A stretch of DNA of 64,000 nucleotides, from positions 19,975 to 83,974 of the forward strand of contig JAHFJL010000001.1 in NCBI GenBank assembly GCA_023245855.1, given 5' to 3'. Shown here piece by piece: positions 1-64,000 of this stretch. The notes under the pieces were generated by a model. That model had not been told where the DNA came from. It searched no databases and saw nothing but the letters and a program-made list of their open reading frames with translations. The position numbers and the translations under genes are program-made. The stretch comes from a bacterium. Its GTDB lineage: Bacteria; Patescibacteriota; Gracilibacteria; Absconditabacterales; Absconditicoccaceae. Position 1 is the first letter of the stretch, and every line of letters starts with the position of its first letter.

Positions 1-1
1 G

Positions 2-1837
2 GGAGGTTCTTGTGTACTTGTAACCCAAGCAATCGTCAATAACGCATGCATCAACTATCAATATAATAATTCACTCGGATGAATAACAACCGGTCAAACC
101 TGCAGCTCAGTCAATGCAGCGATTACCCTTCCTCCTGTCGTGGCAAGTGGATGACAATGCCAATCCTTGACTCCGCTCAATGGAACTATCGCACTCGTAA
201 ATTCAAATGGAAATGCATCTAGTATGTTTAGATGTTCAACTACCAGCTGAACAACCGCACAAAATATCACTATCAATTGTTGAGATGGTAATATACATAC
301 CGCGACTAATGTTTCCACTTTGGATGCGACATGTATCTATACTAATGTCAGCACACCTCACACCTATCCTGTTTCCTGTTCTGTCGACGGAGCAACCTCA
401 CCTGCTTGTCAGCAAAATCTAATCGCTGATCAGTGAACATTCTGAAGATGCGGTGATGGTATCCGTCAATGATATGAACAATGCGACGATGGAAATCTCA
501 ATTGAAGTTCTCAATCAAGTTGTTCTGTAGGATGTAATCTTAACTCTACTACAGCAGGACTTGCAGGATGTTTCAATATCGGCGATGCCAACATCTCTGT
601 ACAAGAAAATGAACTCTTGCCGTTTTGGCGAACCGTTGATGGCGATCAAAACGCAGTCTCCACTTGTGATTCTCTCAACACAAATAAAGTGCAAGCAGAT
701 AGTCTGCAATGTGTATTCCAAATATACAACAGCAATGGTGTAGCGGGCAACACTATCAATGTCCCATGCAAACAGCAAAATTCTGCTGCTATCTTCGATT
801 ACTTCAGCAGCATCGGAGTCTCATCAATGCTTGATGCATACGGAAAATTTTATACTCCTATAGATAGTAGTATAACTAACGGAATGTATGGAGAATATAA
901 AATCAGGCTTCAGGAAGTCAAATATAACTACTGTAATGGCACTACCTTTGTAAGCTGATCACCGCTCCAAAGGGTCTGTGAAACTAATTTCACTGTTACC
1001 AAACCTTATCTCGCACAGAAGAATTCCTTTGGTCTGACGCCTAAAGCTACGAATATCAGACTCGATGGATACAGCACATTGAATGGAACGAATCTGATCG
1101 ACAGTACGGATCTTTCTGACATCATGATACTCAATGAATCAGCATACGCTCCTGGAAATAACATTCAAGCGATGATCAATACCTTCATCACCAAATATGA
1201 TAAGCTCGCTATCCCTGTTCCTCAAAGCTCATTGAAAAATACGGCTTTTGATGGATTAGATATCACAGTAAAAATCGTCCCTCAACAGAAAATCTATATC
1301 TTACAATCTGACACCAAGAAGACGATTACCTTGAAAAACATCACTTCATTTACCGCTCCGTTTACGATCGTCACAAATAATATCGATCTTATAATCAAGG
1401 GAGATGTGAATTATAATGGTATGTTCTTGGTCAAAGGAGGAACGATCTCGTTTGAAAAATCAGATGATATCGTAGGTAATGATAGATGTCCTACTACGCA
1501 GACCGTCAAATGAATATTTGTTACTGACGGCGGATTTGTCGGCTGAGCACCACTCGCAAATACTGATGCCAATCAAAATCGATGTTCTCATGGAGGTTTA
1601 TACGTCAAATGAGTTTTGATCGGCGATAATGTTGAAAGCATCGTCCAATCCAGAAGATCACAGCTCAATCATCGGTTTATAGCTGGCGGATCATCTGACG
1701 CAGCAATCAAAGCTGAAAGAAGAAATGAGATTTTCAACGGTGCTGCTGTACTCATAGAATACAGTCCAAGTCTATGGAGTTCATTACCTCCAGGTGCAAG
1801 CGAATTTACAACTGCATTGAATATCTACAAGCAATAA
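2..1837 (+). CDS. Secreted cysteine-rich-repeat surface protein, C-terminal 611 aa (5' end outside window)
   Basis: Sequence from base 2 plus track fragments 617-958, 1079-1513 and 1616-1837 form one frame interrupted only by TGA. The motif RCGDGIRQGYEQCDDGNLNG (about 440-510) fits the Myxococcus-type Cys-rich repeat, with TGA at conserved Gly positions. TAA stop at 1835-1837. Confidence 0.7.
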
Positions 1838-1927
1838 AAATAGCCGAAAGCTAAAAGCTTGAAGCGAAAAGCAGCAAAACAGAAAAGAGGCGGAGAGTAT
1901 CTGTCTCTTTTTTTATTTATCTTTTTT

Positions 1928-1995
1928 GTCCTCCTTTGTGAAGGAGGGGCTTGTCCTTTGCGAAGTCAAAGGGAACCCAAAGGGTGGAGGATTTA
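1928..1995. repeat. GC-rich hairpin cluster (REP-like), probable terminator of upstream gene
   Basis: Hairpins cctcctt-tgtg-aaggagg (1930-1947) and cctttg-cgaagt-caaagg (1955-1972), followed by a T-rich tract. GC-rich in AT-rich surroundings. Track ORFs 1859-2132 are just translations of it. Confidence 0.5.
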
Positions 1996-2104
1996 TTTTT
2001 TTCTTTTTTTATTTCAAATTCCTTTTCTTTCGGCTTCTCCTTTATCCACGAAAGTGTTTTTTCATAAATTATTTTTCAAAACACAAAAATAAACCAAATA
2101 TTTA

Positions 2105-2139
2105 CTTGACATTGTTTAGTAAATATTTATAAAATTAAA
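2105..2139 (+). promoter_or_regulatory. Sigma70-like promoter candidate
   Basis: TTGACA (2105-2110), 17-18 nt spacer, then ATAAAAT. Lies about 40 nt upstream of ATG 2178. Confidence 0.45.
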
Positions 2140-2177
2140 CATTCAATCCAAACTTTTATACTTAATATATCGCACAC

Positions 2178-5121: not shown

Positions 5122-5892
5122 ATGAAAAAAATCATGTATCTGTTGGTTCTGATGATCATTACGATATCAGCCCAACTGGTTACCGCGCAAACCGTAACCA
5201 TCGCTACAAATCCAAATCCGGCCGATATCTGTGCTGGAAGCGGTACCATTGTGTCGCTAACTGCTAATCCTACGGGTGGGATAGTCATGGGATATTCATG
5301 GTCAAATGGTGGAAACACTCAGACGATCAATGTATCTCCTCTTGCTACCACTCCTTACACGGTTACTGTTACCTTTTTGGGTGGCTTTACTGCTACTGCT
5401 TCACAAACTGTCACTGTCCTGCTTTCACCTACACCAACAATCACTGCAGGTGGTTCATTAAACATCTGCATCGGAAATTCGGTTACACTCACTTCATCTG
5501 CTGCTGCTTCATATCAGTGGTATTTGAATGGTACAATCATTCTCGGTGCAACATTACAAACATACTCAGCTTCTACCTCTGGTTCTTACCAGGTATTCGT
5601 AACTGTAGGCACTTGTACTGGTATGTCACTTGCTTCTGTGGTAACGGCAAATCCATTACCCACTGCAACTGTCACACCTTTAGGTCCTCTTACTACGTGC
5701 TGGGGAACACCTATCACTTTAACTGCCGCTGTCGGTGTTGGTTATAATTATCAATGGCAAATGTCTCCCAATGGACTTGTTCCATGGACAAATATTATTG
5801 GTGAAACCAATCAGACTACAAATATCAATACAACCGGCTATTATCGTGTACAAGTGATTGACGCAAATGGATGCGTAAATTATTCATTGTAA
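5122..5892 (+). CDS. Secreted Ig-like repeat protein (Bacteroidota-style adhesin family)
   Basis: Uninterrupted 256-aa ORF with signal peptide MKKIMYLLVLMIITISAQLVTAQ. Thr/Gly-rich Ig-like modules carry YQW..NG..I.GAT..tY motifs. No in-frame TGA. TAA stop. Confidence 0.75.
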   Translation: MKKIMYLLVLMIITISAQLVTAQTVTIATNPNPADICAGSGTIVSLTANPTGGIVMGYSWSNGGNTQTINVSPLATTPYTVTVTFLGGFTATASQTVTVLLSPTPTITAGGSLNICIGNSVTLTSSAAASYQWYLNGTIILGATLQTYSASTSGSYQVFVTVGTCTGMSLASVVTANPLPTATVTPLGPLTTCWGTPITLTAAVGVGYNYQWQMSPNGLVPWTNIIGETNQTTNINTTGYYRVQVIDANGCVNYSL

Positions 5893-5938
5893 ACATCAAC
5901 TCACTAACTCATTAAAAACTAAAAAAACGTAACTTCAT

Positions 5939-7420
5939 ATGAAAAAAATCTTCGTATTCTGTTGTTTGATGGCAATGCTTTCTACAACACAGACAATAAC
6001 AGCTCAAACTGGTATACATATCACTGTATGGCCTCAATTTGTAGCTGGGACATTATCCGGTGGTATCTCTCCATTATGTTATAATGGAGCTACTGGAATC
6101 ATTACAGGAGTCGCTCCAATAGGAGGACAAGGAGTATATACCTACCAATGGCAACAATCATTGGATGGAGGAACTACTTGGACTAATATTGGTGGCGCAA
6201 CTGGTATCAATTATGATCCTGGAAATCTTCTTGTAAGCACAATGTTCAAAAGAAATGATACAGATCCTTGCGGAACTGTACCTACCAATAACATATCAAT
6301 TATTGTATATGGGCAATTCTTAGCTGGTGTAACAACTGGCGGAACTTCTCCTATATGTAATGGTGTTTTTGGTGGCGCATTAACTTCAACTGCAGGAAGC
6401 GGTGGTGCTCCTGGCACTACGTATCAATGGCAATTATCCACTGATGCTGGAGTAACTTGGAATGATATCTTAGGGCAAACTGCCCTAACTTTGAATATCG
6501 GTGCTCTTACCCAATCTTCCTCATTCAGATTAAAATTTATCAATCCAAGTTGTGGTGCAATTTATGGTAATGTAACATCCTTTACCGTGTATGCAATATT
6601 CTCTGCAGGAACGGTAACTGGCGGTAACACTCCTATGTGCTACAATACCAATGCAGGTATTTTGACAAGTACAGCTCCAACAGGAGGTGCTCTTGGAACA
6701 ACCTTACAATGGGAAAGTTCAAATGACGGTATCACTTATATTGATATTGTTGGTCAAACTACACTTACAACCAACTTGGGTAATTTAACTCAAACTATGT
6801 GGTATCGGTTACGATACACCAATCCTTGTGGTATTACGTACAGCAATGTAAGTAATATCGTAGTGTATGCTCAATTCGTAGCGGGCACTATCTCATTGGT
6901 TGGTTTAACTCCAATCTGTAATGCTACTGATCCCGGATCATTTAATGGAACGGCTGCTGCTGGTGGTGCTCCTGGCACAACTTATCAATGGCAACAATCT
7001 GTGGATGGTGGAACAACTTGGACTAATGTCCTAGGAGCTACACTGGCTACGTACGATCCGGCTAATTTAACTATTACAACTATGTTCCGCCGTCAGGATG
7101 TGAACAGTTGTTTAACTCTTCTTACCAATATCATTACCATTACCGTTTACCCTGCATTTAATCCTGGGGTTATCGGAGTTGCTCAAACAATATGCTGGGG
7201 ATCGACACCGAATTCGTTAAATTTCACTACTCCTCCAAGTGGCGGAGATGGAACGTATACGTATCAGTGGGAATCAAGTTCTAATGGTCTTGTACCTTGG
7301 ACAACAATTCCAGCAGCTATAGCAAATACCTATCAACCACCTTCATTAACAAGTGGCATCTGGTACCATGTAGTAGTCACTAGCGGTTCAGGCTGTGGCA
7401 GTGGCCCAGCTCTTCCATAA
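5939..7420 (+). CDS. Secreted protein with five tandem ~92-aa Ig-like repeats
   Basis: Signal peptide MKKIFVFCCLMAMLSTTQTITAQ. Repeat unit is FVAGT..GG.SP.CYN...G.....A..GG.G.Y.YQWQ.S.DGGTTWTNI.GAT...Y.P.NL...TMFRR, five copies. No in-frame TGA. Confidence 0.75.
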   Translation: MKKIFVFCCLMAMLSTTQTITAQTGIHITVWPQFVAGTLSGGISPLCYNGATGIITGVAPIGGQGVYTYQWQQSLDGGTTWTNIGGATGINYDPGNLLVSTMFKRNDTDPCGTVPTNNISIIVYGQFLAGVTTGGTSPICNGVFGGALTSTAGSGGAPGTTYQWQLSTDAGVTWNDILGQTALTLNIGALTQSSSFRLKFINPSCGAIYGNVTSFTVYAIFSAGTVTGGNTPMCYNTNAGILTSTAPTGGALGTTLQWESSNDGITYIDIVGQTTLTTNLGNLTQTMWYRLRYTNPCGITYSNVSNIVVYAQFVAGTISLVGLTPICNATDPGSFNGTAAAGGAPGTTYQWQQSVDGGTTWTNVLGATLATYDPANLTITTMFRRQDVNSCLTLLTNIITITVYPAFNPGVIGVAQTICWGSTPNSLNFTTPPSGGDGTYTYQWESSSNGLVPWTTIPAAIANTYQPPSLTSGIWYHVVVTSGSGCGSGPALP

Positions 7421-7445
7421 TACATACAATAAAAAAATATACTAT

Positions 7446-9533
7446 ATGAAAAAAACAATCAAAATCCTGTTGTGTGTTGCCGTATTATTCACGGTAACCA
7501 CAGTAGGGCTCTCTCAAACGGGAGTTCAGATTACAATAAGCCCTTCCCCTACGCTACATAGCGTCATGGGAGGCGGACAATATTGCGCTGGACAACCAGG
7601 GGTATCTGTATCACTTTCAAATTCGGAAGGTAATATCAGTTATCAACTGGTACGTAACGGCATGAATACTGGTTTACCTGTAACGAATGTAATAGGAGGA
7701 ATCAACTTTGGAATACAAATTATTCCAGGGATATATACGGTTGTTGCTACGGATGTTAATACGGGTTGCTCTATCCAAATGAGTAATTCTGCAAATGTAA
7801 CAATGAATCCTATACCTTCTATTACTATGAGTGCATCTGGTCCCGTTGTTTTCTGTGGTTCAGGAACAGTTACCTTGTCAGCGAATGTTGCTGGAGGTGG
7901 TTGTACCTATCAATGGAAACATAACGGAACAGCAATCCTGGGGGCTAACCTCAATCAGTATGTAGCTAACCAAACCGGTATGTTTACCGTAGTTGCTACA
8001 AACGGAAGCGGATGTTCCAATACCCATGATACCATGGTTACTGTTAATCAGTTACCTCAACAATTCAATGTCTCTGGCAGTTCAGCAACGTTCTGTCAAG
8101 GCAGTGCCGGTGTAACTATCAATCAGAATGGCTCTCAAAACAATACCAGCTATCAATTGGTATTGAACGGGTTTTCTCAAGGAGGACCTGTAGGTGGGAA
8201 CAATTCTGCCTTAGCATGGGCAAACCAAGCTAATGCGGGTATCTATACCGTTGTTGCAACAGATAATTTAACAGGTTGCACTAACGTAATGAATGGAAGT
8301 GCAGTTGTTGCTATGGATCCTTTACCAAGTGCTGCTTCAGCTATTGTTGGAGTAATGTCTCTATGCCAAGGAGCAACATCTACATTTACTACAAATACAA
8401 TCACCAATGCAACCAGTTATGTCTGGTCAGTACCTACCGGAGCTACTATTATTTCCGGTCAAGGCACAAACATGATACAAGTTAATTTTACTGGCGCTTC
8501 CAGTGGAAACATTGGAGTGTCTGGACAAAATGCTTGTGGTAGTGGACAATCTTCTACAATTCCAATTACTATTAACTTAGCACCAACGCTTATAGTTACT
8601 GCTACGAGTACAGACATCTGTACTGGTGCAAGCACTAATTTGACAGCTAATGGTACTGGAGCAAGCTTTAATTGGACTGGAGTAGGCATAACCCAAACAA
8701 TCACAATTAGCCCTATAATAACAACAACCTATACCGTTACAGTAACTGGGAATAATTCTTGTACCGCTACTGACAATATCACGATAAATGTTCATGCATT
8801 ACCTATAGTTAGCTTAACCTTAGCTCAGGACAATTTCTGTACTGATGTTAATAGCGCTGTAATTAGTGGCGGTTTACCTGTAGGTGGTAGCTATATCGGT
8901 TCTTGCGTACTGGGTAGCAATACCGTTTACCCTCCAGTTTCAGGAACGGGAACGTATATCGTAACTTATACCTATACCAACAATTGGGGATGCGGCAGTT
9001 CTGCAACGGACAATCTAACAATCAACCCTCTCCCTACTGTAATGTTTACCAATATCACTGGACAAATATTTGTTAATACCCCGGCATTCAGTTTATCAGG
9101 GTTTGTCAGTCCAAGCGGTGGAACATTTACAGGTACTGGGATGACAGGAAGCATGTTTGATCCGGCTGTTGCTGGAGCAGGAAGTTATATGATTACTTAT
9201 ACGTATACCCATCCGATCACGGGATGCAGCGCAAGCCAAATCCAGTATATCAATATCGGAGCGGTTGGTATCAATGAAATCGCTGCTGCAACCAAAAATA
9301 TTACTCTTTACCCAAATCCAACCCATAGCCAGTTGAATTTGTCTAACATCAATACCAGGGAAATAAAAAGCATTCGCATTACTAACATTATTGGCGAGGT
9401 AGTTTCTACTACTGAAGTCATTACTGAAAATATGCAGCTTAATGTTTCCAATCTTGTACCGGCTACTTATCTTATTCAATTCATAAATGCTGACGGTATG
9501 TCTGCCAGCAAATACTTTATGAAAACTGAGTAA
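7446..9533 (+). CDS. Secreted Ig/PKD-like repeat adhesin with T9SS type A C-terminal sorting domain
   Basis: Start moved from 7395 to ATG 7446 (MKKTIKILLCVAVLF signal peptide). The C-terminal ~80 aa (ITLYPNPTHSQLNL...IRITNIIGEVV...LNVSNLVPATYLIQFINADGMSASKYFMKTE) fit the Por/T9SS CTD pattern. No in-frame TGA in 695 codons. Confidence 0.8.
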   Translation: MKKTIKILLCVAVLFTVTTVGLSQTGVQITISPSPTLHSVMGGGQYCAGQPGVSVSLSNSEGNISYQLVRNGMNTGLPVTNVIGGINFGIQIIPGIYTVVATDVNTGCSIQMSNSANVTMNPIPSITMSASGPVVFCGSGTVTLSANVAGGGCTYQWKHNGTAILGANLNQYVANQTGMFTVVATNGSGCSNTHDTMVTVNQLPQQFNVSGSSATFCQGSAGVTINQNGSQNNTSYQLVLNGFSQGGPVGGNNSALAWANQANAGIYTVVATDNLTGCTNVMNGSAVVAMDPLPSAASAIVGVMSLCQGATSTFTTNTITNATSYVWSVPTGATIISGQGTNMIQVNFTGASSGNIGVSGQNACGSGQSSTIPITINLAPTLIVTATSTDICTGASTNLTANGTGASFNWTGVGITQTITISPIITTTYTVTVTGNNSCTATDNITINVHALPIVSLTLAQDNFCTDVNSAVISGGLPVGGSYIGSCVLGSNTVYPPVSGTGTYIVTYTYTNNWGCGSSATDNLTINPLPTVMFTNITGQIFVNTPAFSLSGFVSPSGGTFTGTGMTGSMFDPAVAGAGSYMITYTYTHPITGCSASQIQYINIGAVGINEIAAATKNITLYPNPTHSQLNLSNINTREIKSIRITNIIGEVVSTTEVITENMQLNVSNLVPATYLIQFINADGMSASKYFMKTE

Positions 9534-9912: not shown

Positions 9913-10341
9913 ATGCCTACTATCAACCAGTTACTTAAAAAATGAAGGACTAAAAGGACTTATAAATCAAAAGCTCCTGCTTTGCAGTTTGGTATCAACA
10001 AACTCGACAGCAACAAAAGAGTAGATAATCCAGCTCCTTTCAAGAGAGGGGTTTGTCTCAAAGTATCTGTCATGGGACCAAAGAAACCGAATTCAGCGCA
10101 AAGAAAATTTGCGAAGGTAAGATTATCTAATGGAGCTGAAATACTTGCATATATTCCAGGAGAATCTCATACGCTTCAAGAACACAGTGTCGTACTTGTA
10201 AGAGGATGAAGAGTAAAGGATCTTCCAGGTGTGAGATATCATATCGTCAGAGGAAAATATGATGCCAATCCTGTAGACAAGAGAAGACAATCAAGATCTC
10301 TCTACGGAGCAAAGAGACCAAAAGCAACTGTTAAAAAATAA
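9913..10341 (+). CDS. rpsL: 30S ribosomal protein S12
   Basis: [14 protein letters not shown]...[19 protein letters not shown]...[27 protein letters not shown] at 9943-9945 and 10207-10209 both sit at conserved Gly. Track ORF 9982-10209 is the internal fragment. Confidence 0.95.
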
Positions 10342-12675: not shown

Positions 12676-12864
12676 ATGGCAAGAATATGCGACTTTTCTG
12701 GAAAATGAACTAGATCTGGAAATATGAGATCTCACTCTATGAGAGCAACTAAAAGAGCGTTCAAACCCAACTTGATCAACAAACAAGTGACTTTGGAAGA
12801 TGGTTCAAAACTCAATGTAAAAATCAGCTCTAAGATATACAAGAAACTTAAAGGATTCATCTAA
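12676..12864 (+). CDS. rpmB: 50S ribosomal protein L28
   Basis: [33 protein letters not shown]... The TGA encodes the Gly in the GK-G-T segment. Not in the track because it is split by that TGA. Confidence 0.9.
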
Positions 12865-12892
12865 AAAAAACCTGTATATATTTCATCGACAT

Positions 12893-12965
12893 GGGGTGGT
12901 AGCTCAGTCGGTAGAGCAATGGCCTTTTAAGCCAGTGGTCCAGGGTTCGATCCCCTGTCACCCTA
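12893..12965 (+). tRNA. tRNA-Lys (anticodon UUU)
   Basis: Cloverleaf folded by hand. Acceptor GGGGTGG/TCACCCT; D arm GCTC-AGTCGGTA-GAGC. Anticodon stem ATGGC/GCCAG with loop CTTTTAA. T arm CAGGG-TTCGATC-CCCTG. No encoded CCA. Confidence 0.85.
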
Positions 12966-13000
12966 GATGAAATATGTTTCTTGTTTTCATATATATTGAA

Positions 13001-13228: not shown

Positions 13229-15619
13229 ATGAAAAATCTTGTTATCGTTGAGTCTCCCGCTAAATCAGCCACTATCAAAAAATTTCTCGGTGAATGATTT
13301 GAGGTCAAAGCATCATTTGGGCATGTAGTTGATCTGCCTCAAAAAGAGCTCTGAGTGGATGTGAAAAATAATTTCGCGCCAAAATACGTCGTCTCTCCTG
13401 AAAAGACTAAGGTCGTAAGCGAGCTGAAAGCTCTAGCGAAAAAGGCTGATAAAGTCTGGATCGCTACCGATGAAGACCGCGAGGGGGAAGCTATTGGTCG
13501 ACATGTAGCTAACGAGCTATGATTAGATATCAAAAAGACTGCAAGGATCGTATTCCATGAGATTACAAAAGAAGCGATCGATAAAGCCGTAAAAAATCCA
13601 AGAACCATAGATATGCATTTAGTGGATGCTCAACAGGCAAGAAGAATCCTTGATAGACTCGTAGGATTCGAGCTCTCACCTGTCCTCTGGAAGAAGATTA
13701 AAATGGGGTTGAGTGCATGAAGAGTCCAATCCGTCGCCGTAAGGTTGATCGTAGAAAGGGAAAGAGAAATCCAAAAATTTGAGTCAGCATCGTTCTTTAA
13801 AGTTATTGGAAATTTTGTTGGTGATGCGAAAAAGGAGTTTAGAGCTGAATTAAGCAAGGATCTCGGCAACGCCGACGAAGCGAAGAAATTTTTGGAGTCC
13901 TGCAAGGATGCGAAATACGCTATCGAAAACGTCGAAGTCAAACCCGGAAAAAAATCGCCTTCTGCGCCGTTCACGACTTCTACGCTCCAACAGGAAGCGA
14001 GTAGAAAGCTCGGATTCTCCGTAGCGAGAACGATGCAAGTCGCTCAGAAATTATATGAATGAGGGTTCATCACCTACATGAGAACCGATTCCGTGAACAT
14101 GTCAGATTTCGCGGTGAAAGCGGCTCAAGACGAGATCATCAGCAGATATGGGAAAGACTATTCGAAACCGACGCAATATACCACTAAATCCAAATGATCG
14201 CAAGAAGCGCATGAATGTATCAGACCGACACATATGGAAAACAATATCGCTGGAGGCGACGCTTCTGAAAAGAGGTTGTACGAACTTATCTGGAAGAGAT
14301 CCATCGCATCCCAGATGGCGTCTGCTGAAGTAGAGAAAACTAAAGCGACTATCAGCATCTCAACGAATAATAAATTCAATTTCATCGCGAGCGGTGAAGT
14401 CATCAAGTTTGAAGGGTTCTTGAAAGTATATCTGGAATCTACCGATGAAGATGAAGACGAAGAAGAGTCTGGGATGTTGCCGAAGCTCACGAAAGGAGAG
14501 ATCCTTGCGATGCAGCAGATCCTTGCGACAGAAAGATTCAAGAACCATCCGCCAAGATACACGGAGGCGTCGTTGGTCAAGAAGCTTGAAGAGCTTGGAA
14601 TCGGACGTCCGTCTACGTACGCGCCTACGATCTCTACCGTCCAAAAAAGAGGATATGTATTGAAAGAGGATAGGAATGGAACGGAAAGAAAGTACCAGGA
14701 ATTTGTGCTGAGATTAGGCACCATCAAAGCGGATACCAGGACACAAAATACCGGAGCTGAGAAACAAAAACTTTTCCCGACTGACATCTGAATGTTGGTG
14801 AATGATTTTTTGGTGACGAATTTCAAAGATATTTTGGATTACAACTTCACGGCGAGCGTTGAAGGGGAATTTGATGAAATCGCTGAAGGGAAGGTGAAAT
14901 GGGCGGAAATGATCAAACATTTTTATGGGCCGTTCCACAAAGAGGTCGCTAAAACGATGGAGTTTGCTGAAAAGCAAAGCGCTGAAAAAGAGCTCGGAAT
15001 CGATCCCAATACCGGAAAGAAAGTCATCGCAAGGATCGGAAGATTCGGACCGATGGTGCAAGTAGGGACCGCTCAAGATACTGAGAAGCCGAAATTCGCG
15101 TCATTGAAACCTGGGCAGACTATCGAGATGCTTACCTTGGAAGATGCATTAGGATTGTTCGCGTTACCAAGGATTGCAGGAAACTACGAATGAGAGCCTG
15201 TGACCGTGGCTGTCGGTAAATTTTGACCCTATCTGAAATACAAGACGTTCTTTGTCTCGATTCCGAAAACGCTTGATCCGTATACCATCACCATGGACGA
15301 AGCTACGCCGCTTATCGCGAAGAAAATCGATACAGAAAAAAATAAATATATCAATGAATTTGATAACAAGTGAAAAAAAATAGAAGTGCTTAATGGGCTC
15401 TATGGTGCATACATCAAGTTTGATGGTAATAACTACAAGATCCCCAAAGGATGAAAGGATGCAACTGATCTTACGATGAAGGATTGCCTAGAGATTATCG
15501 CTAATGGTCCTAAGCCAAAGTTTGGTAGTAAAAAAGAGGCTGCACCTGTAAAAAAGGCGCCTGCTAAGAAAGCTGTTGCTAAAAAACCAGCCGCTAAAAA
15601 AATCACTAGGAAGAAGTAA
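13229..15619 (+). CDS. topA: DNA topoisomerase I
   Basis: [21 protein letters not shown]..., [10 protein letters not shown] (Toprim), [32 protein letters not shown]. Track fragments 13745-14062, 14234-14791 and 14792-15193 are in one frame joined by TGA. Lys/Ala-rich tail. TAA stop at 15617-15619. Confidence 0.95.
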
Positions 15620-20778: not shown

Positions 20779-21330
20779 TTATTTTTTTGGGATCTTATAT
20801 TCTACACCATTAAGTTTTCTATTGGGGTCCAAGGTATCCTTTGTTTGTACTCTCTCTTCCCCATCAGCATCTCTCTCAATAATTCATCACAAAGACTCCG
20901 CTATCTTTCTACTCGGGATATTGTCCTTATCTACTGGATAATATAAGTATTTAAACTCCAGATTGTTTTGTGCTCGATCCGCTAATCCAGCAACAGCCTC
21001 CCTTCCTATCTTTTTTCCGAACGCTCACTTCTTGATCCGGATACCCAGTTCCGGAGCTTCAGGATTTTTGAAATGCAATCCTCAACATCCTAAGAACTCT
21101 TGGGTGATCTTATCCAAAATAGCTATTTGATAATTTTTTCAGTTGGTATTTTTATCGATAGATTCTTGGATAAATTTTTCCGTCTCGGTGATATGTTTTG
21201 GAGATTTAGGGAACATATATGTAGTGATCTCTGGTGTAAACTCCTTGAATATCTCTTGAGCATATTGTATTGAAATAGGCACGAGAAGCAAGCGTTCCGT
21301 CTCTATCGTTAGTGTGTTAAAATTTTCCAT
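20779..21330 (-). CDS. GNAT-family N-acetyltransferase (RimJ/RimL-like)
   Basis: MENFNTLTIETERLLLVPIS... is a typical RimJ/L N-terminus. Later ...LGCGGLHF...PELGIRIKK.AFGKKIGREA. Start moved to ATG 21330 inside track ORF 21139-21396 and extended through TGA. Confidence 0.7.
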
Positions 21331-21368: not shown

Positions 21369-23159
21369 TTATTCGTTTTCTCCTATGAACCCTCATGACT
21401 GGATATCTCGCAGTTTCTTGTATTGTCCGTCTTTCTTAGCCAGCAACTCCTTATGACTTCATTTCTCTATGATCTGCCCCTTATCCATCACGATAATCTT
21501 ATCCATCTTCATGATGGTCGATAATCTATGTGCAATCACGATAGCCGTTTTGTTTCTGAGGACCTCATCCATCGCTTCCTGTATAAGTTGTTCTGATTCT
21601 GAATCAAGTGATGATGTCGCTTCATCCATGACGAGGATATTCTTATTTTCTAAGATCGCTCTAGCGATAGCAACTCTCTGCCTCTCTCCTCAGCTCAGCT
21701 TGATCCCTCTTTCGCCGACCAATGTCTCATACCCGTCCTGGAAGCTCGTAATAAACCCATGACATCTCGCCATCTTGGAAGCGGCGATAATCTCTTCTTC
21801 GCTTGCATCAGGCTTACCGTAGGCGATATTTTCTCTGAGCGTACGATGGAAGAGAATCGGATCTTGCGGCACCATAGAGATATGTGATCTCAACGACTCT
21901 TGCGTAACCTCAGCAATATCCTGGTTATCAATTATTATCTTTCCTCATTGAATATCAAATAATCTAAACAGAAGTTTTACGATGGTTGTCTTTCCTCCTC
22001 ATGATTGACCTACTATCGCGACCTTTTCTCCGGGTTTGATTCTTAAGGATAATCATGTGAAGACATCTTTATTCGCTAGATATTGGAAGTTTACGTTTTG
22101 AAACTCGATCCTTCCCTCTCTAACAATCAGCTTCTTATCTGATCTATCTATAATCTCATGCGGTGTATCTAGGATCTCAAGCATCTCTGCTGATTCTCCG
22201 ATAGCTTTATTGAGCTGCTTCAAAATCTGTCTGATGCCGAAGAGTTGCTCGAATATTTTGAAGATATATACCTGGATCAAAATAATGACGCCCGCCGAGA
22301 TTGCTCATCTCCCTCGTGATTGGATCGCTAAATAGATTGCTGAGATTTCAAATATCAATATCAGTATCGAACTTCAAAAGAACATCCGTTCTCCTCTCAT
22401 CCGTTTCACTTTCGTCAAACGTTCCCGTTCTTTTACTACACCGCCAAATCTTTTGATCTCTCTCGGCAATGATGCGAAAGTGATGATATTAAAATTATTG
22501 GTGATCGTATCAGATAGCTCTCCTGTCAATTTTGAATCCTGGATATTAGATTTTATTTCGTATGCGGTATTTCGCTTGAAGAAGAAATATTGCAGGACTG
22601 AAAATATGATAATGAATGCTAGAAATACTAGTCCTATCCTCGTATCTTTTCTTATCACTACAACGACTATAAATGGCAGATATAGTACTGTCTTCATGAT
22701 ATTAAAGATAAAATTATCGATGATGTTTTCATATGAGAATACTAATTTATTCAATTTCTTTACCAGCGATCCAGAAAAATTGTTGGTAAAAAATCTAAAT
22801 GAATGCTTATGCAGATAAGCGAACGTCTGCTCGAAAATCTTTCTCATGACTTTCGGTTCTAAACTCACTAGACCAAATCCTATCATCCTCCATGCGCTAA
22901 TATTGATAATTTCTAAGATGGTCATAGCAACCAAAATTCACATCAATAGCGGCACTAATTCGGCTCTGGTTTTTGTGGTCATCTGTACGATATCTATAAT
23001 CTTGGTGTAATAGATAGGTAAAAGCAATCCCGTTCATGAAGCAAAAATGATTCCTGCTAAAGCTATAAAAAACGGCCATCTATTGGTCATCGTCATTTTC
23101 CAAAAATACGAAATCACTCTTCGTGTTCATATCTGGGTATTCTTGTTTTCGTGTATCAT
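21369..23159 (-). CDS. ABC exporter, fused permease/ATPase (MsbA-like)
   Basis: Walker A GQSGGGKTT (the first central Gly is TGA at 21999-22001). Signature [14 protein letters not shown] (first Gly is TGA). Walker [14 protein letters not shown]-loop [10 protein letters not shown]. Six-TM N-terminal half. Fragments 21690-21893, 22053-22280 and 22374-22934 share one frame. Alternative start at 23096. Confidence 0.9.
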
Positions 23160-37761: not shown

Positions 37762-38286
37762 TTATATTAATTTCTGATATACTCAATAATCCTTATTTGA
37801 AAATAATACAAATCTAACTTCTTCGATTTCTGGATATAATTCAACAAATCCTCTTACTGTTTCTACTGCGATTTTACTACATTCCTCTATCGGACATCCA
37901 TAAGCGCCCGTACTGATCGATGGAAACGAAATCGTTTTTATCCCATGATCCAATGCGATTTTCAAACTATTTTCGTAACAATGAAATAGATCATCTTTTC
38001 GGTCATCGTTTTTATAATCCGAGAATCTTGGACCGACCGTATGGATCACTCGTTTAGCGGGAAGATTTCATCATACGGTAGCTACTGCTTCACCTGTAGG
38101 CAAGCCTTTGGGATATTCAATTCTTGTAATATTTTGACACGCTTGTAAAATCATTGGTCAGCCTGCACGATGAATTGCTCCGTCTACGCCTCATCATCAC
38201 AAAAGAGTACTATTCGCAGCATTAACGATAGCATCAGTATTTTGAGTAGTTATGTCTCAGAGGATGAGAATAATAGTAGCAACCAT
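37762..38286 (-). CDS. Macro-domain protein (YmdB / O-acetyl-ADP-ribose deacetylase-like)
   Basis: [35 protein letters not shown]...RVIHTVGPRF...ISFPSISTGAYG. Three consecutive TGA (38191-38199) encode the conserved Gly loop. Confidence 0.9.
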
Positions 38287-51021: not shown

Positions 51022-51029
51022 ATATATGA

Positions 51030-53729: not shown

Positions 53730-53757
53730 AACGAAAAAATAGAAATAAAGTATATTT

Positions 53758-53785: not shown

Positions 53786-53790
53786 TCGAA

Positions 53791-53820
53791 TAAAATAAAA
53801 AATCCCCGCTGAGACGGAGA
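53791..53820 (-). terminator. Rho-independent terminator (minus strand)
   Basis: On the minus strand: tctccg-tctcag-cgggga (one G-U pair) followed by TTTTTTATTTT. Insulates the membrane gene from hsdR. Confidence 0.55.
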
Positions 53821-53926
53821 TCTTTTCGTTAAAAATAAAATCAGATATATATTTTTTAAATAAAAAATACAATTTCGATATCATGAAAACACTTCGATAT
53901 CTCAGGTTTTCATTGTATCTCAAACG

Positions 53927-58236: not shown

Positions 58237-59667
58237 ATGGAACAAGTTATCTGAAATTCACTCCTCGATAAATACTTCGACGAGAATACGATGTCCTTTC
58301 ACGTCAAAGAAAACAGGCAGATGATGAGGAAAAAAGGGACACCAGGAAACTGGAAACCGGTCCTCGATGAACACATCATGTCCAAAGACGATATGAAAAA
58401 ACTTATCGACGATATCTACAAAGAGATAGAAAACAGAGATGACGGATTCTTGGAAATAGATAGACCGCTCTCCAAAGTATTGCAACTTGGAGTGTATAGG
58501 ATCGTTATCGTGTATCCTCCGCTTTCAGATGGATTGGAAATGACGATAGTGAAACCGATAAAAAAATTGGTCATCGAAGATTATAATCTAGATAAAGAGG
58601 TGTTTGAATTATTGAGAAATCAAGCGAAAGGTATCCTGATCTCCTGATCGCCAGGCAGCGGAAAAACCACATTCGCTCAAGCGCTTATCGACGTCTATCA
58701 CAAAGATAATAATGTCATCAAGACGATCGAATCACCGCGTGATCTCTTGGTGAGCGACGATATCGTGCAATATAGCTTCACCTACGGAACGCATGACGAA
58801 GTGAGAGATATCTTGTTGCTTTCGAGGCCTGATTATACGGTCTATGATGAAGTGAGAAACAAATCTGATTTTGAATTATACAAGGATCTGAGATTGACGG
58901 GTATCGGGTTGGTCGGCGTAATCCACGCAACCAGAGCCGTAGACAGCATCCAGAGATTTATCGGAACTATCGAGATGGGAATCATCCCGCAAGTGATCGA
59001 TACGGTCATCTATATCGATAAATGAGTCATCCAAGAAATATTTACACTCCAGCTGACCGTCAAAGTGCCTGAAGGCATGGAGTCGCAAGATCTTGCAAGA
59101 CCGGTCATCATCATCACTAGTTTCCTCACGAAACAAGTGGAGTACGAAATCTACACCTTCGGTGAACAGATAGTTGTCATGCCGCTTTCCGGCGACGCTG
59201 ATGGCAATGGCAAAGTGACTAGCAAATGAAAGACCGCCATCTCTGAATATGCTAAACATACCATCAACCAAAAATTAGAACAGATCCTTCCGTGCGATTT
59301 CATCATCAAAATCAAAGGATCATCTACCCTTGATCTCTATATCCCTGAATTCTACAAAGGACGCGTCATCGGAAAATCAGGCGCTACCATCAACGAGCTG
59401 GAAAAAAATCTCAAGCTCAAGATCAACGTAAAAACATTTGATGAACTCCAGCTCTTGGATGTCCCTACCCAAACTGAAATGCACAAAGGCGGCATCAATG
59501 TCAGTTTCCCTGTAGAATTCGCAGGCCAGATCATGTGTTTCCTTATCGGAGAGCAGATAGCGTATTTCACAGCTGATGACAAATCTACCATCACCATCAA
59601 AAATAAAGATCTCGTAAAAGTCATGAACAAAAAAGGTTTTGTACTCGTGGATACCAATAAATTGTAA
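58237..59667 (+). CDS. P-loop ATPase (PilT/PINA-like) with C-terminal KH domain
   Basis: Walker A GILISGSPGSGKTT (first Gly is TGA). RPDYTVYDEVR (Walker B-like). KH motif GRVIGKSGATINELEKNL. Fragments 58291-58647, 58747-59025 and 59455-59667 are in frame with ATG 58237. Confidence 0.7.
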
Positions 59668-61401: not shown

Positions 61402-61417
61402 ATACTATATATAGTGG
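61402..61417. promoter_or_regulatory. NrdR box 1
   Basis: atactatatatagtgg compared with the consensus acaCwAtATaTwGtgt. Confidence 0.6.
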
Positions 61418-61434
61418 CTACGTTTTTTTTCATA

Positions 61435-61450
61435 CCACAATATATTGTGT
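61435..61450. promoter_or_regulatory. NrdR box 2
   Basis: ccacaatatattgtgt, with a perfect 14-nt palindrome core. Its centre is 33 bp from box 1, upstream of nrdD. Confidence 0.7.
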
Positions 61451-61600
61451 ATTCTGCATCTTTTCAAAGAATTGTAAATACAAAACAATATATAATGAAA
61501 AATTAATAATGAATAATTAATAATGTCGGAAAATATTATATAAAAAGATTCCATCATCATTCATCATTCACTACACTTTTAATTGTTAGTTGGTAAAGTA

Positions 61601-63811
61601 ATGGCTATCTACAAAATCAGGAAACGTAATGGAGCGATCATCGACTTTGATATCAGCAAAATCGAATATGCCGTAAAAAGCGCTATAGAATCTGTCGGAG
61701 GGACAGACTTCACCCAAGTATCTTCGCTCGCAAACAAAATAGGAAAAGAGATAGAGAAGAAAGTGAACAAAGAGATTCCTGATGTAGAGATCGTGCAAGA
61801 TATCGTAGAACAGGTCTTGATTAAAGAAGGACATGATAAAGTAGCAAAAGCCTATATCCTCTACCGCAAACAAAGAGAACAATCCAGATCAGAAAAGAAT
61901 GTTGTCGTAGAAGTGGGAAAGACTATGGATGAATACCTCCAACAAAGCGATTGGAGAGTCAACGCAAATAGCAACCAAGGATATTCACTCGGAGGACTTA
62001 TCTTGAATGTTTCCGGAAAAGTGATCGCTAACTACTGGCTTTCTCACGTCTATCCTGCAGAAATAGGAAACGCTCACAGAACGGGAGAGATTCATATCCA
62101 TGACTTAGATATGTTTTCTGGATACTGTGCAGGACGAAGTTTGAGGCAATTGCTTGAAGAAGGATTCAACGGACTTTCAAATAGGGTGCAATCCGCTCCG
62201 CCAAAAAATCTCCAGGCGGCGGTCAACCAGATGATTAACTTCTTCTGAACTTTACAGAACGAATGGGCGGGTGCTCAAGCATTCTCATCATTCGATACTT
62301 ACCTTGCTCCGTTTGTACACAAATACAGAATGGAATTAGAAAAAGATCTTGATGACTTGTGAGTACAATTCCCTTCTGAAGAAGCAAGAAAAGAACATAT
62401 CGCAAAAACTACCCATAAATATGTCACTCAGCAGATGCAAAATTTCGTCTTTGGACTTAACGTACCTTCACGCTGGGGAACGCAAACACCGTTCACGAAT
62501 ATCACGCTTGATCGGACTTGTCCTGAAGATCTCAAAGAAAAATCGCTTATGCTTTGAGGGATAGAGAAATGATATTATTACAAAAAATTCAGCGAACTTG
62601 ATGAAGAGATGAAGCTCATCAATAGAGTCTTGATTGAAGTCTATACGGCAGGAGATTGGACAGGATCAGTATTCACCTTTCCTATCCCAACTTATAATAT
62701 CACTGAAGACTTTCCACGAGAGGATCCAGATGTAAATCTTCTCTTCGAAATGACAGCTAAATACGGGATCCCTTACTTTCAAAACTTCGTAGGATCGCAA
62801 TTCAAAGTCAGCAAAGACAAAGACGGGAAAGTCACTAAAGTAGAAAATCCTGATGCCTACAAACCGGGAGCAGTAAGATCGATGTGCTGTAGATTGCAGC
62901 TTGACCTTACCCAGCTAGAAAAAAGATGAGGAGGCCTCTTCGGATCAGCAGAAATGACGTGATCCATTGGAGTCGTAACTATCAATATGGCCAGAATCGG
63001 ATATAATTTTAAATGAGATATGGCGGGGTTCAAAGCACATGTCCATTACCTTATGAACCTTTCAAAAATATCTCTTGAGCTCAAAAGAAAAGAGATTACC
63101 AGATGGTTGGATATGGGTCTCTATCCTTATACCAAGAGATATCTCCATTCATTCAGAAACCATTTCTCTACTATCGGCCTCAACGGTATGAACGAAGCTA
63201 TCCAAAACTTCACGAACGGTAAGGAAGACATCTCTACTGATGAGGGAAAGAAATTCACAATCGAGATCTTAGATTTTATGAGAGATATCCTCAAACAATA
63301 CCAAGAAGAGACGGAAAACCTCTACAATCTTGAAGCTACACCAGCAGAAGGGACTACGTATAGATTCGCTAAAGAAGATAAGAAGCAGATCCCGAACATC
63401 ATCCAAGCAGGAACGAATGATGCTCCTTACTATACCAATTCAACCCAGCTGCCTGTAGGATATACTGACGATCCGTTTGAAGCGCTCGAACAGCAAAATG
63501 AAATGCAATGCAAATATACATGAGGAACAGTACTTCACCTGTATATGTGAGAAAGACTTTCAGACGCTAAAGCATGCAAACAATTAGTAAAAAAAGTCAT
63601 TGATAATTATCAGCTTCCGTATATAACTATCTCACCCGTCTTCTCTATCTGTCCAAAACATGGATATGTCATCGGAGAACACGATTTCTGTCCAAAATGC
63701 GATAAAGAGCTTGGATACACGGGAGATGAATTTAATATTGATATCAGACAAAAACATACTTCTGACCCTGAAAAACTCAGGATTATCAGAGAAAAACAAT
63801 TCACGGAATAA
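61601..63811 (+). CDS. nrdD: Anaerobic ribonucleoside-triphosphate reductase, large part (lacks glycyl-radical tail)
   Basis: ATP-cone MAIYKIRKRNGAIIDFDISKI. GEIHIHDLDMFSGYCAG. SMCCRLQLDL. GGGLFGSAEMTGSIGVVTIN. Zn-site ICPKHGYVIGEHDFCPKC. Fragments 61583-62248, 62609-62929 and 63020-63523 are in frame via TGA. TAA stop at 63809-63811. Confidence 0.9.
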
Positions 63812-63876
63812 TGTATAGCATAAAGCCAAAAGCGTAAAGCAGAAAAAAATCTTTTAACTTTTAACAAAATTGCCCC

Positions 63877-64000
63877 ATGAAAGCATTCTACAACAAAGAA
63901 GGAAAAGAAATTCAAAGAACTCCCTGCCAAGTCTATACGAGAGTTATGGGATACCTCAGACCGGTGAGTCATTACAATATCGGTAAAAAATCAGAATTCT
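63877..64000 (+). CDS. NrdD glycyl-radical C-terminal domain as a separate ORF (3' end outside window)
   Basis: MKAFYNKEGKEIQRTPCQVYTRVMGYLRPVSHYNIGKKSEF contains the RV.GY.RPV...N.GK..E glycyl-radical signature. It is in a different frame and starts 65 nt after the nrdD stop. Confidence 0.7.
   Translation, partial: MKAFYNKEGKEIQRTPCQVYTRVMGYLRPVSHYNIGKKSEF

What the first reader, a model, noticed from the sequence alone, without database searches (positions are those of the whole stretch)
1..64000. The locus is written in genetic code 25 (UGA = Gly); the standard-code ORF track is systematically fragmented
Almost every gene with a recognisable homolog is chopped into pieces in the supplied track. 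Every break I inspected is TGA, never TAA or TAG. Reading TGA as Gly restores full-length proteins and places Gly on invariant positions. Examples: S12 [17 protein letters not shown] (10207-10209); L28 FSGK-G-TRSGN; ABC exporter Walker A GQS-G-GGKTT (21999-22001) and signature LS-G-GERQR. Further examples: macro domain LL-GGG-GVDGAIH, where three consecutive TGA (38191-38199) encode the Gly loop; DinD GYV-G-LYG; and the KH-ATPase P-loop S-G-SPGSGKTT. TGG is still used where Trp is expected, so this is not code 4. This assigns the DNA to a Gracilibacteria/Absconditabacteria-type lineage and changes every downstream annotation.
Basis: partly seen in the sequence, partly recalled or inferred. Interest (0 to 1): 0.7.

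Follow-up and report, generated by a model that had tools for sequence, protein, structure and literature searches.

The report
Recoded SR1 genome: UGA-Gly, CGA/CGG-Trp

Summary
With TGA as a stop, only 5 ORFs of at least 300 aa exist (13% of the window). With only TAA/TAG as stops there are 28 (72%). All 53 long ORFs end in TAA or TAG.

TGA sits on glycine columns. In HsdM, GmrSD and NrdD, 10 of the 11 TGA codons in columns at least 80% conserved fall on Gly and none on Trp. In iPGM three TGA fall on Gly columns that are 97-100% conserved.

"Code 25" is incomplete. CGA and CGG align with invariant Trp, not Arg. Of 18 columns at least 80% Trp, 9 are CGA, 2 are CGG and 7 are TGG. No conserved Arg column carries CGA or CGG. 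Reading them as Trp gains 99 bits over table 25 in three family profiles and 58 bits in Pfam.

The closest named relatives are SR1/Absconditabacterales MAGs. This extended code was predicted for the lineage in 2021, so the result is already known.

tRNA-Gly(UCA), a Trp-type tRNA(UCG) and loss of RF2 could not be checked from the window.

Side observation: a conserved surface-protein family with a T9SS sorting domain, and an SPFH gene, avoid all three reassigned codons completely.

The parts
1..64000 (.). Whole window: coding sequence written in the Absconditabacteria code (UGA=Gly, CGA/CGG=Trp; stops are TAA/TAG only). GC is 35.7%.
   Evidence: ORF statistics; codon counts; profile tests.
10207..10209 (+). 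TGA in ribosomal protein S12 (gene 9913-10341), at the invariant [14 protein letters not shown] glycine.
   Evidence: PDB S12 sequences have G; Pfam S12 match.
12706..12708 (+). TGA in ribosomal protein L28 (about 12676-12861), in FSGK-G-TRSGN.
   Evidence: weak L28 Pfam hit on the code-11 fragment in L008.
21999..22001 (-). TGA at the Walker A glycine of the ABC exporter (gene 21369-23159). Further TGA at the LSGGQ signature (21690-21692) and the G-S-H motif (21459-21461).
38191..38199 (-). Three consecutive TGA encoding the GGG of the macro-domain loop LLGGGGVDGAIH (gene 37762-38286).
   Evidence: MacroD structures have GGGG.
31394..31396 (-). TGA in the Walker A motif GAP-G-SGKT of the ComM/Mg-chelatase-like ATPase (gene 30530-32074).
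58645..58647 (+). TGA in the P-loop IS-G-SPGSGKTT of the PilT/KH-type ATPase (gene 58237-59667).
24898..24900 (-). CGA in iPGM (gene 23944-25470) at a Trp that is invariant in 68/68 standard-code loci and is TGG in 12/12 UGA-recoded relatives. In the same gene, TGA at 24931-24933, 24028-24030 and 23959-23961 lie on Gly columns that are 97-100% conserved.
42041..42055 (-). Two CGA (42053-42055 and 42041-42043) in the HsdM N-terminal motif L-W-NTF-W-SGG. A third CGA is at 41879-41881. The homologue columns are Trp in 101/103, 95/103 and 102/111.
   Evidence: The Pfam HsdM_N score rises from 38.3 to 52.8 bits with W.
40420..40422 (-). CGG in GmrSD (gene 38305-40512), motif QRKYV-W; Trp in 108/108 homologues. 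Further Trp columns in the same gene: CGA 40348-40350 (108/110), CGG 39997-39999 (95/119), CGA 39568-39570, 39397-39399 and 39163-39165.
62135..62137 (+). CGA in NrdD (gene 61601-63811), motif CAG-W-SL; Trp in 117/119. Also CGG 62513-62515 (Trp 75/119, Ile 43) and CGA 62717-62719 (Trp 119/119). TGA at 62246, 62960 and 63521 lie on Gly columns at least 97% conserved.
13499..13501 (+). CGA in the topoisomerase I Toprim motif [10 protein letters not shown] (gene 13229-15619).
   Evidence: The Pfam Toprim score rises from 73.9 to 77.3 bits with W.
21037..21039 (-). CGG in the GNAT acetyltransferase (gene 20779-21396), motif ELGI-W-IKKG.
   Evidence: The Acetyltransf_3 score rises from 72.5 to 79.0 bits with W at the CGR codons.
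5122..9533 (+). Exception block. Three secreted Ig-like/PKD/SprB-repeat proteins; the last (7446-9533) ends in a T9SS type A sorting domain. The block has 170 GGN and 0 TGA, and 23 TGG against 2 CGR.
   Evidence: Syntenic and also TGA-free in relatives.
25883..28207 (+). Exception gene: a 774-aa SPFH/Band-7 protein with 64 GGN and 0 TGA.
12892..12966 (+). tRNA-Lys(UUU), the only tRNA in the window. No tRNA(UCA), tRNA(UCG) or tRNA(CCG) is present here.

Best explanation
The window is a stretch of chromosome from an uncultured SR1 / Absconditabacteria (Ca. Absconditibacteriota, GTDB Absconditabacterales) bacterium. It uses the extended code already predicted for that lineage: UGA = Gly, CGA and CGG = Trp, and termination only at UAA/UAG.

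Shown here:
1. TGA is in frame throughout conserved genes and falls on glycine columns.
2. CGA and CGG fall on tryptophan columns. In close relatives they interchange with TGG and never with other Arg codons.
3. CGU, CGC, AGA and AGG still fall on Arg columns, and TGG still falls on Trp columns.
4. Every ORF ends in TAA or TAG.

Inferred from the literature, not shown here:
- UGA is read by a tRNA-Gly(UCA), and release factor 2 has been lost.
- CGA/CGG are read by tRNA(UCG) and tRNA(CCG) that carry Trp identity elements.
- CGU/CGC are left to tRNA-Arg(GCG).

Low GC content (35.7% here) is thought to have made these codons rare before they were captured. In this organism the reassignment is advanced. 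TGA is the commonest Gly codon (32%) and CGA+CGG are the majority of Trp codons (56%) in ordinary genes.
For: ORF restoration is specific to TGA, and terminators are only TAA (40) or TAG (13).

Composition:
- Gly is 6.7% of codons if TGA = Gly.
- Trp would be 2.2% if TGA = Trp.
- Trp is 0.59% from TGG alone and 1.14% with CGA/CGG added.

Codon substitutions against SR1 relatives L001-L005:
- Window TGA aligns with GGN 34, TGA 11 and TGG 0, out of 64.
- Window TGG aligns with TGG 28 and CGA 8.
- Window CGA aligns with CGA 6, TGG 3 and CGG 2, and with no Arg codon.

iPGM at DNA level against 68 standard-code loci:
- TGA codons lie on Gly columns of 68/68, 66/66 and 64/66.
- One CGA lies on a Trp column of 68/68.

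HsdM, GmrSD and NrdD against 116, 152 and 119 homologues:
- The 18 columns at least 80% Trp carry CGA 9, TGG 7 and CGG 2.
- The 67 columns at least 80% Gly include 10 TGA.
- The 38 columns at least 80% Arg carry no CGA, no CGG and no TGA.

Family HMM scores for (TGA=G, CGR=W) / table 25 / table 4:
- HsdM: 838 / 810 / 781 bits.
- GmrSD: 892 / 841 / 780 bits.
- NrdD: 1155 / 1136 / 1107 bits.

Pfam: a net gain of 58 bits for W over R across ten proteins.

Lineage: relatives named SR1 or Absconditabacterales.

Literature: UGA=Gly in SR1, and CGA+CGG=Trp predicted for Absconditabacteria (PMC8629427); restated in PMC13092985.
Against: No tRNA(UCA), tRNA(UCG), tRNA(CCG), prfB or trpS lies in the window or in any fetched locus. 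The decoding machinery is therefore inferred.

CGG rests on only four tabulated positions. Three are Trp columns. One, HsdM aa260, is mixed: R 26, gap 24, W 23.

Three Pfam domains lose 0.3-2.1 bits with W: Macro, N6_Mtase and EcoEI_R_C.

There is no protein-level evidence, so partial or ambiguous decoding of CGA/CGG cannot be excluded.

Two of the closest MAGs are labelled 'Candidatus Peribacteria' by their submitters. They carry in-frame TGA all the same.
Confidence: 0.93

Rival explanations
1. Plain NCBI table 25: UGA = Gly but CGA/CGG still Arg.
For: CGA/CGG are Arg in nearly all bacteria. One CGG column (HsdM aa260) has a slight Arg plurality. Three Pfam domains score 0.3-2.1 bits better with R.
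Against: Eleven of 14 tabulated CGA/CGG positions lie on columns at least 80% Trp, and none lies on a conserved Arg column. In family HMMs, R scores no better than X at these codons, while W gains 18-52 bits per protein. In relatives CGA interchanges with TGG and never with AGA, AGG or CGY. Trp would be only 0.59% of residues.
Confidence: 0.04
2. Table 4 (UGA = Trp), as in Mycoplasma. This is how a public protein collection has translated this organism.
For: P0001, the stored copy of the window's GmrSD protein, has W at all 18 TGA codons. That is a gene-caller's choice, not evidence.
Against: None of the 38 tabulated TGA positions has a Trp plurality, and 28 have a Gly plurality. Table 4 loses 29-61 bits per protein against table 25. 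Window TGA never aligns with TGG in relatives. Trp would be 2.2% of residues.
Confidence: 0.01
3. The breaks are not a code change. They reflect pseudogenes, sequencing or assembly errors, selenocysteine, or a chimeric contig that joins a recoded genome to a standard-code one (which would explain the TGA-free block).
For: A 4.4-kb block (5122-9533) and several other genes lack TGA. The block has somewhat higher GC and a Bacteroidota-type T9SS sorting domain.
Against: All 312 internal 'stops' are TGA, and they sit on conserved Gly. The junction between the TGA-free block and rpsL is reproduced in an independent Logan assembly and in two related MAGs, where the block is also TGA-free. Orthologues of the block's last gene are named SR1/Absconditabacterales. 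Third-position GC of the block (0.30) is below the window's ordinary genes (0.365) and matches the ribosomal-protein genes.
Confidence: 0.01
4. CGA/CGG are decoded ambiguously (Trp and Arg). This would be an intermediate stage rather than a completed reassignment.
For: The literature allows for ambiguity during reassignment (PMC8629427). A few CGA/CGG sit on non-conserved or mixed columns. Genes that look highly expressed avoid these codons, as expected if decoding is costly or error-prone.
Against: CGA/CGG occupy invariant, functionally critical Trp positions in housekeeping enzymes (iPGM, NrdD, TopA) at a frequency equal to or above TGG. Substantial Arg misincorporation there would be hard to tolerate.
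Confidence: 0.1

Closest known systems
NCBI translation table 25 (Candidate division SR1 and Gracilibacteria code; Campbell et al. 2013, Rinke et al. 2013, as cited in PMC8629427)
   Same: UGA is a sense codon for Gly. UAA and UAG are the only terminators. The genome is low-GC and of CPR type. The lineage is the same.
   Different: Table 25 keeps CGA and CGG as Arg. Here they are Trp codons, and they outnumber TGG in ordinary genes.
Absconditabacteria code predicted by Codetta (Shulgina & Eddy 2021, eLife, PMC8629427): UGA=Gly plus CGA and CGG=Trp
   Same: The three reassignments, the lineage and the GC range (0.26-0.38) are the same. CGU/CGC are retained as Arg. A relative carries tRNA-Arg(GCG), as the paper describes for CPR bacteria.
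   Different: Nothing qualitative differs. Usage here is at or above the top of the reported range: CGA 39, CGG 16 and TGG 59 per 10,000 codons over the window. The paper gives CGA below 37 in all species and CGG below 7 in all but one, although it counts Pfam-aligned columns, so the numbers are not strictly comparable.
NCBI table 4 (Mycoplasmatales and several insect endosymbionts; UGA=Trp)
   Same: UGA is a sense codon in a low-GC, reduced genome, and termination uses UAA/UAG only.
   Different: UGA means Gly here, not Trp.
CGG=Trp reassignments in Anaerococcus and RFN20 Bacilli (PMC8629427, PMC13092985)
   Same: An Arg CGN-box codon has been captured for Trp in a low-GC lineage.
   Different: In those lineages only CGG is reassigned and CGA stays Arg. 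Here both are reassigned, and this sits on top of a stop-codon reassignment.

Membership tests
Genetic code 25 (UGA = Gly) | In-frame UGA is common in conserved protein genes, and removing UGA as a stop restores full-length ORFs. | tested here: met
   There are 312 in-frame TGA. ORFs of at least 300 aa rise from 5 to 28, and control stop pairs do not restore them.
Genetic code 25 (UGA = Gly) | UGA aligns with Gly, not Trp, in homologues from standard-code organisms. | tested here: met
   Gly is the plurality residue at 28 of 38 tabulated TGA positions, and Trp at none. G scores 118 bits above W over three family HMMs. PDB motifs agree.
Genetic code 25 (UGA = Gly) | Only UAA/UAG are used as terminators. 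| tested here: met
   TAA 40, TAG 13.
Genetic code 25 (UGA = Gly) | A tRNA-Gly with anticodon UCA is present in the genome. | not testable with these tools
   The only tRNA in the window is Lys(UUU). No tRNA(UCA) occurs in the roughly 250 kb of recoded loci scanned for tRNAs. The rest of the source contig could not be fetched.
Genetic code 25 (UGA = Gly) | Release factor 2 (prfB) is absent. | not testable with these tools
   No prfB is seen in the window, but 64 kb of a genome says nothing about absence.
Absconditabacteria extended code (CGA, CGG = Trp) | CGA aligns with conserved Trp. | tested here: met
   Nine of 10 CGA positions in HsdM, GmrSD and NrdD lie on columns at least 80% Trp. iPGM aa191 is Trp in 68/68. 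CGA and TGG interchange in relatives.
Absconditabacteria extended code (CGA, CGG = Trp) | CGG aligns with conserved Trp. | tested here: met
   GmrSD aa31 is Trp in 108/108 and aa172 in 95/119; NrdD aa311 in 75/119. HsdM aa260 is mixed. The sample is small (4 positions).
Absconditabacteria extended code (CGA, CGG = Trp) | CGU, CGC, AGA and AGG remain Arg, and UGG remains Trp. | tested here: met
   Arg is the plurality residue at 5/7 CGT, 4/4 CGC, 35/45 AGA and 5/7 AGG positions. Trp is the plurality at 9/14 TGG positions.
Absconditabacteria extended code (CGA, CGG = Trp) | tRNA(UCG)/tRNA(CCG) with Trp identity elements (G73, no A20). | not testable with these tools
   No such tRNA occurs in any sequence held. 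Only tRNA-Arg(GCG) was seen, in relative L002.
Lineage SR1 / Absconditabacterales | The closest relatives of housekeeping genes are Absconditabacteria. | tested here: met
   TopA is 88% identical to that of the 'candidate division SR1 bacterium' MAG LacPavin_0818_WC45_MAG_36_8. Orthologues are named SR1 and Absconditabacterales. SR1 corresponds to Ca. Absconditibacteriota. No marker-gene phylogeny was made, and two close MAGs are labelled Peribacteria by their submitters.
Genetic code 4 (UGA = Trp) | UGA aligns with Trp. | tested here: not met
   No TGA position has a Trp plurality. Table 4 gives the lowest score in all three family HMMs.
T9SS type A sorting-domain cargo (side observation, gene 7446-9533) | A C-terminal Por_Secre_tail / TIGR04183 domain above the curated cut-off. 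| tested here: met
   Pfam PF18962 scores 40.8 bits against a cut-off of 27. TIGR04183 scores 32.2 bits against a cut-off of 23.
T9SS type A sorting-domain cargo (side observation, gene 7446-9533) | A type IX secretion machinery is present in the same genome. | not testable with these tools
   None is in the window. Whole-genome data are not available here.

The most novel reading that the evidence does not exclude
A conserved set of Absconditabacterales genes is kept free of all three reassigned codons, and more strictly than the ribosomal-protein genes. The set includes the 695-aa surface-protein family with a T9SS type A sorting domain, found next to rpsL, and probably its two neighbours and an SPFH protein.

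The most novel reading the evidence leaves open is this. These genes are held 'code-neutral' because they must remain readable under the standard code. That could be through recurrent exchange with standard-code partners or hosts, or through expression inside them. Bacteroidota-type organisms, which own a T9SS, are the obvious candidates. The alternative is simply that the genes are very highly expressed.
Probability: 0.08. Interest if true: 0.75.

Novelty: already known. Interest (0 to 1): 0.3.

Why it matters
The practical consequence is annotation.

- Any annotation made with table 11 shatters the genes. In public assemblies S12 is called as 75 aa and TopA as three fragments.
- Table 4 puts Trp at every UGA glycine. 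The stored copy of the window's GmrSD protein has 18 wrong Trp residues.
These include catalytic-domain motifs of NrdD, iPGM, TopA, HsdM and GmrSD.

The window independently corroborates a reassignment that so far rests on computational prediction. It also shows an organism in which the new Trp codons already outnumber UGG in ordinary genes.

The side observation, complete and conserved avoidance of the reassigned codons in a few genes, bears on what it costs a cell to decode reassigned codons.

Tried and rejected
1. PDB alignment of NrdD. The solved NrdD structures are too divergent. The TGA and CGR positions fell in poorly aligned regions, so I replaced this with 119 closer homologues.

2. 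Fetching the rest of the source contig (probably 91,202 bp) to look for tRNA(UCA), tRNA(UCG) and prfB.
- Exact look-ups of window proteins were not on record or returned only short Logan/ENA contigs.
- The last protein search returned no self-hit for NrdD or the first surface protein.

3. tRNA and Rfam scans of the window, 5 related genome loci and 14 other loci found no tRNA with anticodon UCA, UCG or CCG.

4. Using the 10-kb flanks of the 80 iPGM loci for more codon comparisons. There was almost no synteny with the window.

5. Chimeric assembly or recent horizontal transfer as the explanation for the TGA-free block. I rejected this on synteny in relatives, an independent assembly, SR1-named orthologues and codon usage like that of ribosomal-protein genes.

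6. A gene-by-gene correlation between a T-ending versus G-ending codon index and TGA usage. It was weak (Spearman -0.14, not significant) because AT-rich defence genes confound the index. The link to expression level therefore remains an inference.

7. A literature search for a description of reassigned-codon avoidance in SR1 found nothing specific.

Full report
**1. Checking the observation**

The window has 35.7% GC. Under the bacterial code it contains only 13 ORFs of at least 200 aa (22% of its length) and 5 of at least 300 aa (13%). If TGA is not a stop there are 56 and 28, and the 300-aa class covers 72%. Freeing TAG or TAA instead leaves 13% and 20%. The fragmentation is therefore specific to TGA.

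A greedy non-overlapping set of 53 TAA/TAG-bounded ORFs covers 88.5% of the window. It contains 312 in-frame TGA, and every ORF ends in TAA (40) or TAG (13).

- 10207-10209 is the TGA in S12 [17 protein letters not shown].
- 12706-12708 is the TGA in L28 FSGK-G-TRSGN.
- 21999-22001 (minus strand) is the TGA in the ABC Walker A motif GQS-G-GGKTT.
- 38191-38199 is TGATGATGA in the macro loop LL-GGG-GVDGAIH.

**2. UGA means Gly, not Trp**

Composition already points that way. GGN alone gives 5.0% Gly and adding TGA gives 6.7%. Adding TGA to Trp instead would give 2.2% Trp.

Solved structures, which cannot be affected by annotation choices, have Gly at the quoted motifs:
- S12 [14 protein letters not shown].
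- MacroD LLGGGGVDGAIH, plus the VVGDIT and AAGP glycines.
- ABCB Walker A, LSGGQ and the G-[TS]-H motif.

At DNA level I compared iPGM with 80 metagenomic loci. Sixty-eight of them have no in-frame TGA. In those, the window's TGA at aa180, 481 and 504 lie on Gly in 68/68, 66/66 and 64/66. In the 12 recoded loci, conserved Gly columns are TGA 116 times.

Against 116 HsdM, 152 GmrSD and 119 NrdD homologues:
- Gly is the plurality residue at 24 of 33 TGA positions, and Trp at none.
- Ten of the 11 TGA that fall in columns at least 80% conserved are on Gly.

In family HMMs built from those homologues, TGA=G beats TGA=W by 29, 61 and 29 bits.

In SR1 relatives, window TGA aligns with GGN 34 times, with TGA 11 times and with TGG never.

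**3.

While reading the translations I saw Arg where Trp is expected: TopA EAIG-R-H, NrdD CAG-R-SL, GmrSD QRKYV-R. Every such codon was CGA or CGG. The tests agree.

iPGM:
- CGA at aa191 is Trp in 68/68 standard-code loci and TGG in 12/12 recoded relatives.

HsdM:
- CGA at aa44, 48 and 102 are Trp in 101/103, 95/103 and 102/111.

GmrSD:
- All six CGR positions are Trp columns, including CGG aa31 at 108/108 and CGG aa172 at 95/119.

NrdD:
- CGA aa185 is Trp in 117/119.
- CGA aa379 is Trp in 119/119.
- CGG aa311 is Trp in 75/119.

Pooled over HsdM, GmrSD and NrdD:
- The 18 columns that are at least 80% Trp carry CGA 9, TGG 7 and CGG 2 in the window.
- The 38 columns at least 80% Arg carry AGA, AGG, CGT and CGC, but never CGA or CGG.

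Scores:
- Reading CGR as W rather than R gains 28, 52 and 19 bits in the family HMMs. R scores no better than X there.
- The same change gives a net +58 bits over ten proteins in Pfam. The largest gains are HsdM_N +14.5, GmrSD_N +13.8, NRDD +11.4, iPGM_N +7.2 and Acetyltransf_3 +6.5. Three domains lose 0.3-2.1 bits.

In relatives, window TGG aligns with CGA 8 times. Window CGA aligns with TGG, CGA or CGG and never with another Arg codon.

With CGR counted as Trp, Trp rises from 0.59% to 1.14% of residues.

**4. Lineage and prior knowledge**

TopA finds genome loci at 85-88% identity. One is titled 'candidate division SR1 bacterium'. Orthologues of the window's T9SS-domain protein are named SR1 and Candidatus Absconditabacterales. 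SR1 corresponds to Ca. Absconditibacteriota.

UGA=Gly in this lineage dates from 2013. Shulgina & Eddy (eLife 2021, PMC8629427) predicted that Absconditabacteria also read CGA and CGG as Trp. They explained it by a tRNA(UCG) that cannot separate the two codons, with CGU/CGC left to tRNA-Arg(GCG). A 2026 paper treats this as established. Relative L002 does carry tRNA-Arg(GCG).

Nothing here is new in kind. What can be added is degree. In ordinary genes of this window, TGA is the commonest Gly codon (32%), and CGA+CGG make up 56% of Trp codons. That puts the organism at or beyond the most advanced case in that paper.

**5. Mechanism: shown and inferred**

Shown: the codon-to-amino-acid mapping, the restriction of terminators to TAA/TAG, and the retention of Arg meaning by CGY and AGR.

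Inferred from the literature: tRNA-Gly(UCA), loss of RF2, and Trp-identity tRNA(UCG)/(CCG).

I could not reach these genes. The window has only tRNA-Lys(UUU). No fetched locus has the relevant tRNAs. The remainder of the source contig could not be retrieved.

**6. State of public data**

One collection holds this organism's proteins as code-11 fragments: S12 is 75 aa and TopA is in three pieces. It also holds code-4 translations: P0001 is the window's GmrSD with W at all 18 TGA and R at all 6 CGR. Neither table 4, 11 nor 25 gives the right protein.

**7. Exceptions, and a side observation**

The following genes have 0 TGA among 246 Gly codons and only 4 CGR among 38 Trp-type codons:
- 5122-5892 (Ig_7 domain).
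- 5939-7420 (SprB-like repeats).
- 7446-9533 (PKD_6, Ig_7 and a T9SS type A sorting domain).
- 25883-28207 (SPFH).
- 34653-35885 (unknown function).

Ribosomal-protein genes are intermediate, with 2 TGA among 39 Gly codons.

This is not a chimera or a recent import:
- The block lies upstream of rpsL in two related MAGs, and it is TGA- and CGR-free there too.
- An independent assembly has the same junction.
- The 695-aa protein has at least 30 orthologues at 43-71% identity. These are full length in a collection that would truncate them or write W at any TGA. They have 0-1 W at the 79 reference Gly columns and no R at the 5 Trp columns.

Codon usage of these genes resembles the ribosomal-protein genes. 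They are rich in GCT, CCT, ACT and GGT, and their third-position GC is 0.25-0.30 against 0.365. Their 5' leaders are A-rich. The ordinary explanation is very high expression, with selection against the reassigned codons.

Two things keep this open. The avoidance is stricter than in ribosomal-protein genes. And a gene-wise correlation is weak. I therefore record it as an unexplained side finding.

**8. Verdict**

The phenomenon is already known, so interest is modest and mainly practical.

Noticed in passing
window 5122-9533 (+); relatives L001:2-1495 and L004:1345-5440; L008: Three secreted Ig-like/PKD/SprB-repeat proteins, the last with a T9SS type A sorting domain, contain none of the reassigned codons: 170 GGN with 0 TGA, and 23 TGG against 2 CGR. 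The block is syntenic next to rpsL in related SR1 MAGs and is codon-free there too. About 30 orthologues from other metagenomes also appear free of TGA and CGR. A T9SS sorting signal in a CPR bacterium is itself odd.
   Followed up: partly
window 25883-28207 (+) and 34653-35885 (+): A 774-aa SPFH/Band-7 protein with internal repeats (64 GGN, 0 TGA) and a 410-aa protein of unknown function (12 GGN, 0 TGA; 7 TGG, 0 CGR) share the avoidance of reassigned codons. They also share the A-rich 5' leaders of the T9SS-like block.
   Followed up: partly
window 61601-63811 and 63877-64000 (+): NrdD ends after its zinc-ribbon region. The glycyl-radical C-terminal piece (…CQVYTRVMGYLRPVSHYNIGKKSEF…) starts as a separate ORF 65 nt downstream, so the class III ribonucleotide reductase looks split. 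Many of its closest homologues carry inteins. The named ones include purple sulfur bacteria (Allochromatium, Thiocystis, Chromatiaceae), alongside CPR and other phyla.
   Followed up: no
window 50320-50384 (+): Rfam match to the DUF3800-IX RNA motif (50.2 bits against a gathering score of 36.8), immediately beside the DUF3800 gene (50389-51021, minus strand).
   Followed up: no
window about 36000-54000 (-): A defence island: macro domain, GmrSD_N+GmrSD_C fused to SLFN_AlbA_2, a type I restriction-modification system (HsdM, HsdS, HsdR), AbiEii, Abi_C, HATPase_c_3, an AAA_15/AAA_21 ATPase and DUF3800. These AT-rich genes are the richest in TGA. In 48136-50139, 25 of 40 Gly codons are TGA.
   Followed up: partly
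window 16414-16893 (-) and 2178-4424 (+): A 159-aa predicted membrane protein has 12 TGA and 6 CGA/CGG, so 11% of its codons are reassigned. The surface protein 2178-4424 has a PPPPD-G13 linker in which 5 of the 13 Gly are TGA. This is an independent visual clue that TGA = Gly.
   Followed up: no
window, 27 gene starts: No Shine-Dalgarno-like motif is seen upstream of any start inspected. Most leaders are T-rich. Those of the genes free of reassigned codons are A-rich.
   Followed up: no
P0001, L008, L089 (public copies of window genes): The same organism is present in Logan run SRR14366756 and ENA assembly ERZ27297709. Its proteins are stored either as code-11 fragments or as code-4 translations with Trp at every UGA. 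Two close MAGs are labelled 'Candidatus Peribacteria' although they carry in-frame TGA.
   Followed up: partly
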